NCBI GenBank assembly: GCA_964016885.1
Contig: OZ024740.1
Coordinates: 389,484,001-389,548,000, forward strand
Direction of reading: 5' to 3'
Length of the DNA: 64,000 nucleotides
Origin: Eledone cirrhosa
Lineage: Eukaryota
Shown: positions 39,910 through 41,159 of the stretch, piece by piece
How the letters are laid out: the number at the start of each line of letters is the position of its first letter
How positions within the stretch are numbered: position 1 is the stretch's first letter
The notes under the pieces: model-generated
What the model saw: only the letters and a program-made list of their open reading frames with translations
Told to the model about the DNA's origin: nothing
The model's database searches: none
Made by a program: the position numbers and the translations under genes

Positions 39910-40427
39910 CTCTCACCCATGCACACATGCACAATTTTTACCGAAAGGAAAAATTATTCTGGAGTTTTCTAATTTTTTTCAAACATGTATAAATCTTATC
40001 ATGCAAATTTTAGACTGGGTAGCAGGCAAAAAAATTATATTGTTTTGAATAAAATATGGAAGTGGACTTCGTCACAGTAAATCTGAACGAAGACAATGAT
40101 TTCCACCATAAATCAAAGGCCTTCTTTCTGGTGACCTCTATCTATGAATATATGTAAGTTTTATGTTCATAGATGTGAACGTATTAATTCATTAAATAAA
40201 CATGTTATATATGATATGTATTTGAATACTTATAAATATGAAAATGTGTATACTAATTCAGGGAGCGCCGTGTAGCGGAAGATACTAGGACTATAGCCCC
40301 CTCCCCCCCCCCCCCTCCCTACAAAAAAAGAAAATTCACATAAAAAATAATAATAATGATGAACAGGGGTATTCTGTAATAGGTAATAGCTAGAGGAAAA
40401 GTGAGATAAACACACACACACACACAC

Positions 40428-40484
<57 letters not shown>

Positions 40485-40506
40485 AAGCGAGTAGATGAAT
40501 ATTAAT

Positions 40507-40604
40507 AATTGTTTCTACTTTTGGCACAAGGCCATCAATTACCCAGTACATTACTGGTACTTTATTTTATCGACCCCGTAAGGATGAAAGGCAAAGTTAA
40601 CCTC
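40507..40604 (-). mobile_element. tRNA-derived SINE, 3' half only
   Basis: Family tail, truncated where HHR unit 3 begins. Confidence 0.8.
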
Positions 40605-40698
40605 ATTAATAATAACATTCGATTCGTTTGCAATTATGCAAACAAGCCTCATTTTAGAATGAGCCCCTCATTCTTGCTCTTGTGTTGGCATGTAAACA

Positions 40699-40748
40699 GA
40701 ACTGCAGACACTAATGTTTCTGGGTATTACCCTTCATCAGTACAGTTC
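40699..40748 (-). ncRNA. Type I hammerhead ribozyme, canonical GUC site
   Basis: Reverse complement gaactgta CTGATGA agggt-aat-accca GAAA ca-ttag-tg TC tgcagttc. Confidence 0.9.
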
Positions 40749-40814
40749 ACTGTTCAATTGCCAACTGTCAGAGCTAGTGAAAATATATGATATTTTCTAA
40801 AATATACAGTGAGT

Positions 40815-40910
40815 GATTGGTCTGATTTGCATATTAGCATACTGGCTGATCAGTCAGATCTGCATATTAGCAGATCCACTGATCAGCCAGATTTGCATAT
40901 TAGCAGACTG
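40815..40910 (-). promoter_or_regulatory. Three 33-bp repeats bearing octamer motifs, plus CCAAT
   Basis: ATTTGCAT at 40825 and 40891, ATCTGCAT at 40858, GATTGG at 40815. Confidence 0.5.
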
Positions 40911-41159
40911 GCCAGTCAGTTTCCTGTATACGAACGATTAATGGCCGGCTTTGCCAAATTCAAATTTAAAAAAAAAATGTTCGCTCGACATGGCTGAATA
41001 CAATAAATGTAATCTGAGTTTTTCGAATATTAATGATAATATTCGATTCGTTTGCAATTATGCAAACAAGCCTAATTTTTAAAGCCATGTCAGTAGAATG
41101 AGTCTCTCATTCTTGCTCTTGTGTTGTCATGTAAACAGAACTTTATATATATATATATA

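What the first reader, a model, noticed from the sequence alone, without database searches (positions are those of the whole stretch)
40605..41142. Element 5' end falls within 3 nt of its own ribozyme cleavage site
Seen: on the minus strand the HHR would cut GUC/UGCAGUUC. The insertion begins at 41142 with AGUUC.., runs one full monomer, passes an intact HHR and continues ~95 nt. Inference: the cDNA was copied from an HHR-processed RNA, which is a genomic footprint of ribozyme activity in mobilisation.
Basis: partly seen in the sequence, partly recalled or inferred. Interest (0 to 1): 0.75.

Follow-up and report, generated by a model that had tools for sequence, protein, structure and literature searches.

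The report
Retrozyme copy starting at ribozyme cut
This is one copy of an abundant non-coding jumping repeat that carries a hammerhead self-cutting RNA motif and begins within three bases of the motif's predicted cut site; in 122 other long copies the starts are mostly scattered but pile up at that site about three times more than expected, which likely means that ribozyme-cut RNA was the template for some copies, although stalling of the copying enzyme on folded RNA would explain it too.

Summary
On the minus strand, 41142-40605 is 1.2 units of a 439-nt repeat with a complete type-I hammerhead motif. The predicted cut lies between 40707 and 40706. The copy starts 0-3 nt after the equivalent position.

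The repeat is a high-copy, non-coding family with the insertion marks of Penelope-like elements: variable 5' truncation, partial tandems, head-to-head inverted partners in about half the copies, and 3' ends abutting (TA)n. It fits the known animal non-LTR retrozyme kind. The scan has already reported other retrozyme families in this genome.

- Most 5' ends lie elsewhere: 105 of 122 other long copies start outside R196-203, and 52 of them carry the uncut upstream site.
- There is an excess at the cut site: 12 of 122 starts fall in the 5-nt bin at the site against 3.6 expected (p about 7e-4), and 9 begin exactly with the first base after the cut.
- Density rises 2.3-fold across the site.
- The excess covers the whole 3' strand of helix I, so polymerase stalling on structure is a live rival.
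- The site nearer the 3' end shows no clear spike.

No RNA data were available.

The parts
41143..41159 (-). (TA)n-like 5' flank of the insertion, read on the minus strand: ..TATATATATATATATAA before AGTTC
   Evidence: repeat family D2. Only 11 of 92 simple family 5' flanks are (TA)n-like.
40704..41142 (-). First, complete 439-nt unit of the repeat. It starts 0-3 nt after the position equivalent to the ribozyme cut. GC is 0.36 and there is no ORF longer than 43 aa.
   Evidence: The best other genomic copies are 88-91% identical.
40814..40920 (-). Three internal 33-nt sub-repeats inside the unit, each holding a CTGATCAG-type palindrome
   Evidence: repeat family D4 (3 copies, spacing 33, 76-80% identity)
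40686..40765 (-). Hammerhead ribozyme motif, type I, with an extended helix I. CUGAUGA is at 40740-40734, GAAAC at 40720-40716 and GUC ends at 40707. There is an A-A mismatch at the base of helix II. Helix III has 3 bp and its sequence is quasi-palindromic.
   Evidence: HH9 alignment; 1336 exact genomic copies of the 34-mer; energy of the hammerhead fold against the MFE fold
40706..40707 (-). Predicted self-cleavage site, GUC|UGCAGUUC, between 40707 and 40706. It is uncut in this DNA copy.
   Evidence: The position follows from the hammerhead core numbering (established knowledge). Cleavage itself was not tested.
40605..40703 (-). Partial second unit (99 nt), 94% identical to 41142-41029 with a 15-nt gap. 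Together with the first unit it forms the partial tandem (pseudo-LTR layout).
40485..40604 (-). 3' module of a very abundant SINE-like repeat, fused to the element. Other family copies carry the same kind of fusion with variable left junctions.
40411..40484 (.). (CA)n(TA)n(TG)n microsatellite at the 3' side of the whole insertion
   Evidence: The miRNA-model hits here are palindrome artefacts.

Best explanation
Window 41142-40605 (minus strand) is a 1.2-unit copy of a roughly 440-nt non-coding repeat with a hammerhead-ribozyme motif and the insertion marks of Penelope-like retroelements, and its start 0-3 nt after the predicted cut site likely reflects reverse transcription that ran off the 5' end of a ribozyme-cut RNA.

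What is shown directly:
- The family is high-copy.
- Its copies share a small set of 3' ends and have variable 5' ends.
- About half carry a head-to-head inverted partner.
- 5' ends are in excess at the cut site.

What is inferred:
- The unit is transcribed as RNA longer than one unit, or its monomers are copied in series.
- A Penelope-type reverse transcriptase/endonuclease supplied in trans primes near unit positions 140-180 on a nicked target, often beside (TA)n, and copies towards the RNA 5' end.
- Most cDNAs stop early, which gives the scattered 5' truncation.
- Each time synthesis reaches a ribozyme site, roughly one copy in five to ten ends there because that RNA had been cut by the hammerhead. 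The hammerhead probably acts as a dimer, given its 3-bp quasi-palindromic helix III.
- The internal uncut site in this copy means one of three things: only the upstream ribozyme had cut, or the enzyme jumped from the end of one cut monomer to the 3' end of another, or it copied a re-ligated circle.
For: Identity of the element:
- The 34-nt ribozyme string has 1336 exact genomic copies against 0 in the control.
- More than 3600 first-look candidates match the element.
- 3' ends cluster at R782/787 and R803-822.
- Inverted partners are present in 12 of 29 and 47 of 90 copies and in 63 of 122 long copies.
- The 3' flank is (TA)n-like in 90 of 155 copies.
- There is no ORF over 43 aa.
- GIY-YIG (Penelope-type endonuclease) matches are very abundant: 10595 first-look candidates, and all 150 scored are over the cut-off.
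- These features match published Penelope-like element hallmarks (PMC8557442, passages).

Footprint at the cut site:
- Among 122 unique long copies other than the window's, 12 start in R196-200 against 3.6 expected (p 7e-4) and 17 in R196-203 against 5.6 expected (p 2e-4).
- This is the fullest of the 24 5-nt bins between R126 and R245.
- 9 copies begin exactly at the first base after the cut. That compares with 1.6 per nt in the surrounding block (p 5e-5; this count was adjusted by eye).
- 5 of those 9 are simple insertions with unrelated flanks and no shared microhomology.
- There are 0 starts in R191-195, 23 in R154-198 and 54 in R199-243.
- The replication batch gave 6 of 31 in R196-203 against 1.3 expected.
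- Long-copy starts do not shift with the 3'-end class (list; class medians worked out by hand).
Against: - Only 17 of 122 long copies start at the site; 52 start upstream and carry it uncut.
- In the position-ordered sample, just 1-2 of 90 copies start at the upstream site.
- The raised density covers R196-225, which is exactly the 3' strand of the extended helix I. Bins at R211-215 and R221-225 are nearly as full. A second raised block, R236-250, lies on the 3' arm of a hairpin. This pattern suits structure-induced stops.
- Dropping the copies found only by the first search makes the site bin tie with R211-215, 10 each.
- At the 3'-proximal site, 6 of 34 starts fall in R636-642 (p 0.07).
- The edge of the short-copy cluster follows the 3' end (5 of 12 against 1 of 48, p 8e-4).
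- Copies that start at the site do not have a better-preserved ribozyme than the others: core motif intact in 13 of 17 against 70 of 105, p 0.58.
- The hammerhead fold is not the predicted minimum-energy fold (-11.4 against -28.6 kcal/mol).
- The Rfam score is far below threshold, and helix II starts with an A-A mismatch.
- Self-cleavage and expression are untested; no RNA run was listed (see Tried and rejected).
- The samples are not random draws, and two of them disagree on the share of starts in R196-261 (p 0.004).
Confidence: 0.45

Rival explanations
1. The reverse transcriptase stalls or falls off on folded RNA. The excess of 5' ends marks the 3' strand of the long helix I of the ribozyme domain, and a nearby hairpin, and needs no cleavage at all. 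On this reading the window copy simply stopped at the far end of that helix.
For: - The raised 5-nt bins run from R196 to R225 (12, 7, 6, 10, 6, 7) against 0-4 upstream and 1-2 just downstream.
- There is a second rise at R236-250.
- The predicted extended helix I pairs R199-222, and a hairpin pairs R232-250.
- A peak at R220-223 sits at the entry to the helix.
Against: - Stalling is expected at the entry to a helix or inside it, not at its last base.
- 9 starts fall exactly on the first base after the cut, and none fall in R191-195.
- The same helix at the 3'-proximal unit shows no block pattern (one search list).
- The structures are predictions only.
Confidence: 0.3
2. This is coincidence within ordinary 5' truncation. 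5' ends are spread over the whole unit with uneven local density, and this copy happens to end near the site.
For: - 5' ends are broad in the position-ordered samples: in S2, 73 of 90 lie in R260-602, and in S4 they lie throughout.
- Other small pile-ups exist at R142, R213 and R222-223.
- The samples disagree.
- BLAST-defined ends are uncertain by about 3 nt.
Against: - The bin was named in advance by the hypothesis, and it holds 12 against 3.6 expected.
- It is the fullest of 24 bins.
- The excess was seen again in 31 new copies.
Confidence: 0.2
3. The start is inherited or set by transcription. Source copies would be transcribed from a start site that lies at the cut position, as the pseudo-LTR of Penelope holds the transcription start, or a source copy that already began there would pass its end on to its progeny.
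For: - In Penelope and Chlamys the transcription start lies in the pseudo-LTR (PMC8557442, passage).
- Several copies that start at the site share the TGTTCGC variant.
Against: - It needs a start site that coincides to the base with the ribozyme cut.
- Starters have different flanks and different 3'-end classes.
- No promoter was tested.
Confidence: 0.05

Closest known systems
Animal non-LTR retrozymes (Cervera and de la Pena 2020, PMC7229834, passages read; Li, Clavereau and Pollet 2026 preprint 10.64898/2026.07.22.740005, abstract and passages read)
   Same: It is a non-coding, AT-rich repeat unit of a few hundred nt with a type-I hammerhead in every unit. It is dispersed in high copy, and mobilisation by Penelope-like elements has been proposed for this kind.
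   Different: - This family forms only partial tandems of under 2 units in the 277 copies seen, not long arrays.
- Its unit (439-441 nt) is at the upper end of the published size range.
- Circular RNA was not testable here.
- I found no census of 5' ends against the cut site in the passages I read.
Penelope-like elements with hammerhead motifs in their pseudo-LTRs (Cervera and de la Pena 2014, PMC4209133; Craig et al. 2021, PMC8557442; passages read)
   Same: The shared features are 5' truncation, a partial tandem giving a pseudo-LTR that holds the ribozyme, an inverted 5'-truncated copy at the 5' end, microsatellite-associated ends, and a short helix III that suggests action as a dimer.
   Different: There is no RT/endonuclease ORF, so the element is non-autonomous. 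No autonomous partner with a matching 3' tail was found in the 12 GIY-YIG loci examined. The papers state that the role of the ribozyme is unclear and lacks in vivo evidence.
R2 and L1Tc retrotransposons, whose HDV-like ribozyme makes the 5' end of the element RNA (review PMC6765202, passages read)
   Same: A self-cleaving ribozyme frees the template RNA from upstream transcript, so element 5' ends coincide with a ribozyme cut.
   Different: - It is a different ribozyme class.
- In R2 and L1Tc the ribozyme stays at the 5' end of the product and essentially all full-length copies start there.
- Here the hammerhead is left on the upstream product, and at most 14% of long copies start at the site.
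Schistosome SINE-like elements and newt satellite 2 with hammerheads (named in PMC6765202 and PMC4209133; passages only)
   Same: These are short non-coding repeats with type-I hammerheads and a weak helix III. Self-cleavage as dimers has been reported for the newt RNA (Forster 1988, seen cited only).
   Different: I made no sequence comparison. Their insertion anatomy was not compared here.

Membership tests
Type-I hammerhead ribozyme | Conserved core: CUGANGA, GAAA, and a cleavage triplet NUH | tested here: met
   CUGAUGA, GAAA(C) and GUC are all present in the right order. The 34-mer is conserved exactly 1336 times in the genome.
Type-I hammerhead ribozyme | Three helices around the core, with helix I open | tested here: met
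   Helix I has 8 bp and can be extended to about 24 nt. Helix II has 4 bp but an A-A mismatch at its base. Helix III has 3 bp with a 4-nt loop. The fold is not the predicted MFE.
Type-I hammerhead ribozyme | Score at or above the curated Rfam threshold | tested here: not met
   There were 0 matches at gathering score. The best hit is HH9 at 17.2 bits against a threshold of 52.
Type-I hammerhead ribozyme | Self-cleavage at the predicted bond | not testable with these tools
   This needs in vitro transcription or RNA-end mapping. No RNA run was listed.
Animal non-LTR retrozyme | Non-coding, low-GC unit of about 150-450 bp holding a type-I hammerhead | tested here: met
   The unit is 439 nt, GC is 0.36 and the longest ORF is 43 aa.
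Animal non-LTR retrozyme | Tandem arrangement, from dimers to long multimers | tested here: inconclusive
   I saw only partial tandems. The longest copies reach about 1.9 units (L059, L114, L002), and no array was found among 277 copies.
Animal non-LTR retrozyme | Expression as linear and circular RNA | not testable with these tools
   No RNA run was listed.
Penelope-like element, non-autonomous derivative | Variable 5' truncation with shared 3' ends, and a partial tandem (pseudo-LTR) | tested here: met
Penelope-like element, non-autonomous derivative | Inverted 5'-truncated copy abutting the 5' end | tested here: met
   12 of 29 and 47 of 90 copies, and 63 of 122 long copies. The window copy itself has none.
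Penelope-like element, non-autonomous derivative | Association with microsatellites at the insertion site | tested here: met
   The 3' flank is (TA)n-like in 90 of 155 copies, but the 5' flank is so in only 11 of 92 simple copies. The (TA)n may therefore partly be a tail and not the target.
Penelope-like element, non-autonomous derivative | 3' end shared with an autonomous RT plus GIY-YIG element of the same genome | tested here: inconclusive
   GIY-YIG matches are very abundant. None of the 12 loci examined shares the tail, and that is a tiny sample of more than 10000 candidates.

The most novel reading that the evidence does not exclude
Hammerhead self-cleavage works in vivo in this animal and makes the 5' end of roughly one template in five to ten each time a Penelope-type reverse transcriptase reaches a ribozyme site. 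On this reading, linear ribozyme-processed RNAs, and not only circles or uncut multimers, are copied into the genome. That would be a first genomic footprint of ribozyme activity in Penelope-type retrotransposition.
Probability: 0.4. Interest if true: 0.6.

Novelty: new member of a known kind. Interest (0 to 1): 0.42.

Why it matters
The papers I read say that the role of hammerheads in Penelope-like elements and animal retrozymes is unclear and lacks in vivo evidence (PMC4209133 and PMC8557442, passages). If the excess of copy starts at the cut site is real, it gives a cheap, genome-only readout of ribozyme action during mobilisation. It also names the competing template forms (cut linear RNA, uncut multimer, circle), which can be told apart by RNA-end mapping and by comparing ribozyme-dead subfamilies. 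As it stands the effect is modest and has a plausible structural rival, so this is a lead and not a result.

Tried and rejected
- **Rfam.** There were no matches at gathering score over the whole window. A search of 1001 nt at E up to 10 gave 45 hits and none was a hammerhead; most are miRNA models matching the (CA)n(TA)n(TG)n palindrome, which is an artefact.
- **Gapped pattern.** I used DNA queries and single patterns instead.
- **RNA evidence.** No RNA holder was listed: 3 runs of one study, kind unknown, kept as contigs. I did not lay them, because contigs cannot show RNA ends.
- **Ribozyme integrity.** Copies starting at the site do not have a better-kept ribozyme: 13 of 17 against 70 of 105, p 0.58. 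Inconclusive.
- **Autonomous partner.** None of 12 GIY-YIG loci has tail similarity. One (L372) merely has a family copy next to it, and one (L363) has a different minimal hammerhead-like string.
- **3'-proximal cut site.** There is no clear spike there. I first read the dense cluster of short copies just after it as a footprint, then dropped that reading because its edge moves with the 3' end.
- **Twin priming of the L1 type.** I rejected this for the inverted partners because both arms carry their own 3' end.
- **Nested SINE with a target duplication.** I considered this for the window's 3' part. The alignment of 15 other loci shows variable left junctions and a shared tail instead, and I left it unresolved.

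Full report
**What is in the window**

The minus strand from 41142 to 40605 holds one complete 439-nt unit (41142-40704) and the first 99 nt of a second (40703-40605). The two overlapping stretches are 94% identical, with a 15-nt gap (repeats D5 and D6).

Near the end of the first unit lies a complete hammerhead motif:
- GAACUGUA, the 5' strand of helix I
- CUGAUGA
- A-GGGU-AAU-ACCC-A, which is helix II with an A-A mismatch at its base
- GAAAC
- ACA-UUAG-UGU, a 3-bp helix III
- C, then UGCAGUUC, the 3' strand of helix I

By the standard core numbering the cut falls after GUC, between 40707 and 40706. The copy starts at 41142 with AGUUC. The three bases before it read TAA where the unit has UGC, so the start is 0-3 nt after the equivalent of the cut.

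Support for the motif is mixed:
- Rfam finds nothing at its thresholds. Its only hit is Hammerhead_HH9 at 17.2 bits against a threshold of 52 in a 101-nt search.
- The loose core pattern occurs by chance in 15 of 100 shuffles.
- The hammerhead fold (-11.4 kcal/mol) is not the predicted optimum (-28.6), in which CUGAUG pairs with CAUUAG.
- Against that, the 34-nt string from CUGAUGA to GUC occurs 1336 times exactly in the genome and 0 times in the reversed control.
- Helix III (ACAUUAGUGU) can pair with a second copy of itself over 10 bp, by my reading of the sequence. Published work links this layout to hammerheads that act as dimers (PMC4209133, passages; PMC7229834, passages).

**What the element is**

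The genome is 3.0 Gb. The element has more than 3600 first-look candidates, and the best are 88-91% identical to the window copy. I examined copies from five samples.
- S1: the best hits to the whole window element (29 unique).
- S2: the first 100 places on contig 1 with the exact ribozyme string (90 unique).
- S3: the best hits to the unit interior of two different copies (58 unique other than the window's own copy).
- S4: the first 100 places with an exact 30-mer, of which 99 loci were analysed.
- S5: a replication batch with two further queries (31 new).

Together these give 277 unique 5' junctions.

Positions are given on a natural 822-nt copy, R (L002). Its cut sites fall after R198 and R639, and the window copy spans R203-756.

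The family shows the following features:
- 3' ends cluster at R782/787 and R803-822.
- The 3' flank is (TA)n-like in 90 of 155 copies.
- 5' ends are variable.
- Copies never exceed about 1.9 units.
- A head-to-head inverted partner, carrying its own 3' end, is present in 12 of 29, 47 of 90 and 63 of 122 copies.
- The unit has GC 0.36 and no ORF over 43 aa.

These are the published hallmarks of Penelope-like elements (PMC8557442, passages). The unit fits the animal non-LTR retrozyme kind (PMC7229834). A 2026 preprint argues that such retrozymes derive from Penelope pseudo-LTRs (10.64898/2026.07.22.740005, abstract and passages).

GIY-YIG endonuclease matches are very abundant here: 10595 candidates, and all 150 scored are over the cut-off. 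None of the 12 loci I looked at shares the element's tail, so the partner is not identified.

Earlier notes of this scan describe other retrozyme families with Penelope-type insertions in the same genome. None covers this family.

*All copies.* 5' ends are spread widely.
- In S2, 73 of 90 lie in R260-602, 3 in R199-259, 11 in R142-198 and 3 further upstream.
- In S4, I set aside 15 copies whose alignment is broken by a nested SINE fragment. Of the remaining 66 copies with a 3' end at R803-822:
  - 34 start in R625-704
  - 6 in R505-624
  - 17 in R262-504
  - 4 in R199-261
  - 5 downstream of R704

So most copies do not start at a cut site.

*Long copies reaching the upstream site.* There are 122 unique copies with a 5' end at or before R265, not counting the window's own.
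- The 5-nt bins from R126 to R245 hold 3, 1, 4, 4, 2, 2, 3, 4, 4, 0, 1, 4, 3, 0, 12, 7, 6, 10, 6, 7, 1, 2, 4, 6.
- The bin at the cut (R196-200) is the fullest: 12 against 3.6 expected, p 7e-4.
- R196-203 holds 17 against 5.6 expected, p 2e-4.
- The 45 nt before the cut hold 23 starts and the 45 nt after it hold 54, p 5e-4.

Read base by base, 9 copies begin exactly with TGCAG: L035, L158, L169, L289, L183, L155, L192 (same junction as L214), L307 and L352. A further 3 begin one base later. 5 of the 9 are simple insertions with unrelated flanks. Three of the four with inverted partners (L192/L214 and L352) join at a TGCA microhomology.

The 31 new copies of S5 gave 6 in R196-203 against 1.3 expected, but only 3 in R196-200 against 0.9 expected (p 0.06). 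In S3 the starts of long copies do not shift with the 3'-end class; I worked this out by hand from the list.

- 105 of 122 long copies start elsewhere, and 52 carry the upstream site uncut.
- The excess is not confined to the cut. The whole stretch R196-225 is raised. That stretch is the 3' strand of the extended helix I (pairing R199-222 in the fold). A second raised stretch, R236-250, lies on the 3' arm of a hairpin. A peak at R220-223 sits at the entry to the helix.
- Without the ten copies found only by S1, whose query began at the window copy's own start, the cut-site bin ties with R211-215 at 10 each.
- At the 3'-proximal site, 6 of 34 starts fall in R636-642 (p 0.07).
- The dense cluster of short copies after that site is largely a length effect. 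For 3' ends at R775-790, 5 of 12 starts lie inside the ribozyme (R580-624). For 3' ends at R803 or beyond, 1 of 48 do (p 8e-4).
- Copies that start at the site do not have a better-kept ribozyme: 13 of 17 against 70 of 105.
- The samples are not random draws. S2 and S3 differ in the share of starts in R196-261: 4 against 13, compared with 38 against 20 (p 0.004). With S4 added the difference fades (p 0.14). I cannot explain this.
- BLAST-defined ends are uncertain by about 3 nt, and duplicates were removed only by identical 80-nt junctions.

**Mechanism**

My best reading has confidence 0.45. A Penelope-type enzyme copies RNA of this family from a start near unit positions 140-180 towards the 5' end. 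Most cDNAs stop early. When synthesis reaches a ribozyme site, roughly one copy in five to ten ends there because the hammerhead had cut that RNA:
- 17 of the 69 copies that reach the upstream site end in R196-203.
- 4 of the 36 copies that reach the 3'-proximal site end in R637-644 (list; my count).

The window copy would be one such product. Its internal uncut site is explained in one of three ways: only one of two ribozymes cut, the enzyme jumped from the end of one cut monomer onto another, or it copied a re-ligated circle. Everything from the RNA onwards is inferred. Only the DNA anatomy and the counts are shown.

The main rival (0.3) is stalling of the enzyme on the helix-I strand without any cleavage. 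Chance within uneven truncation (0.2) and an inherited or transcriptional start (0.05) remain possible.

**Comparison and novelty**

The element is a new family of a known kind. Ribozymes that define the 5' end of a retroelement RNA are known for R2 and L1Tc, which use HDV-like ribozymes (PMC6765202, passages). For hammerheads in Penelope-like elements the papers state that the role is unclear and untested in vivo.

I found no census of copy starts against the hammerhead cut. I searched papers twice and looked for "cleavage site" inside two papers: 0 occurrences in the preprint and 1, a figure legend, in PMC7229834. This search was not exhaustive, and I did not read supplements.

Two earlier notes of this scan looked at single junctions at cut sites in other families, with mixed outcomes.

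**Verdict**

It is a modest, statistically visible footprint with a credible structural rival, and it can be tested by a full census and RNA-end mapping.

Noticed in passing
window 40485-40604 (minus strand); loci L115, L228, L263, L111, L053, L342, L090, L093, L257, L254, L258, L250, L231: The window copy is fused at unit position about 114 to the 3' part of a very abundant SINE-like repeat of about 108 nt, which is present in most of the 3-kb loci fetched, often several times. In 13 other distinct loci the ribozyme element is followed by a SINE fragment with a variable left junction, and then by the tail ATTATTAATATTCGAAAAACTCAGATTACATTTAT. This suggests that the SINE and the ribozyme element share a 3' tail, and possibly the same reverse transcriptase, or that template switching occurs between them.
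   Followed up: partly
family-wide: The 3' flank is (TA)n-like in 90 of 155 copies, but the 5' flank is so in only 11 of 92 simple copies. The (TA)n may be partly a tail made at insertion and not only the target. The window copy is one of the minority with (TA)n at its 5' side.
   Followed up: partly
samples S2 against S3: The position-ordered sample with an exact ribozyme string has far fewer copies starting in R196-261, relative to further upstream, than the best-hit samples do (4:13 against 38:20, p 0.004). The fraction of copies with an exact ribozyme does not explain it.
   Followed up: partly
window 40686-40765 (minus strand): The predicted minimum-energy fold pairs CUGAUG with CAUUAG inside an extended helix I, which would be an inactive conformer. 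Two copies together are predicted 8.4 kcal/mol more stable than two separate monomers.
   Followed up: no
window 40406-40492: Hits to many miRNA models (mir-3149, mir-1277, mir-297 and others, all below their thresholds) are caused by the (CA)n(TA)n(TG)n palindrome and are artefacts.
   Followed up: yes
own genome; locus L363 about 2711: GIY-YIG endonuclease matches are extremely abundant: 10595 first-look candidates, and all 150 scored are above the Pfam cut-off. One locus has a different minimal hammerhead-like string (CTGATGA..GAAAC) downstream of the endonuclease domain.
   Followed up: partly
L016/L017, L037/L038, L123/L124, L152/L171, L244/L245: Several copies recur with identical flanks at nearby places, for example 1446 bp or 133 kb apart. 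These are segmental or tandem duplications of already inserted copies, and I counted each once.
   Followed up: partly
L192 (contig 28) and L214 (contig 1): Two distant loci share the same inverted-partner junction (..CGATT[G/C]GTT|TGCA..), which joins at a TGCA microhomology exactly at the cut position. Either the rearranged composite was itself copied, or the junction formed twice.
   Followed up: no
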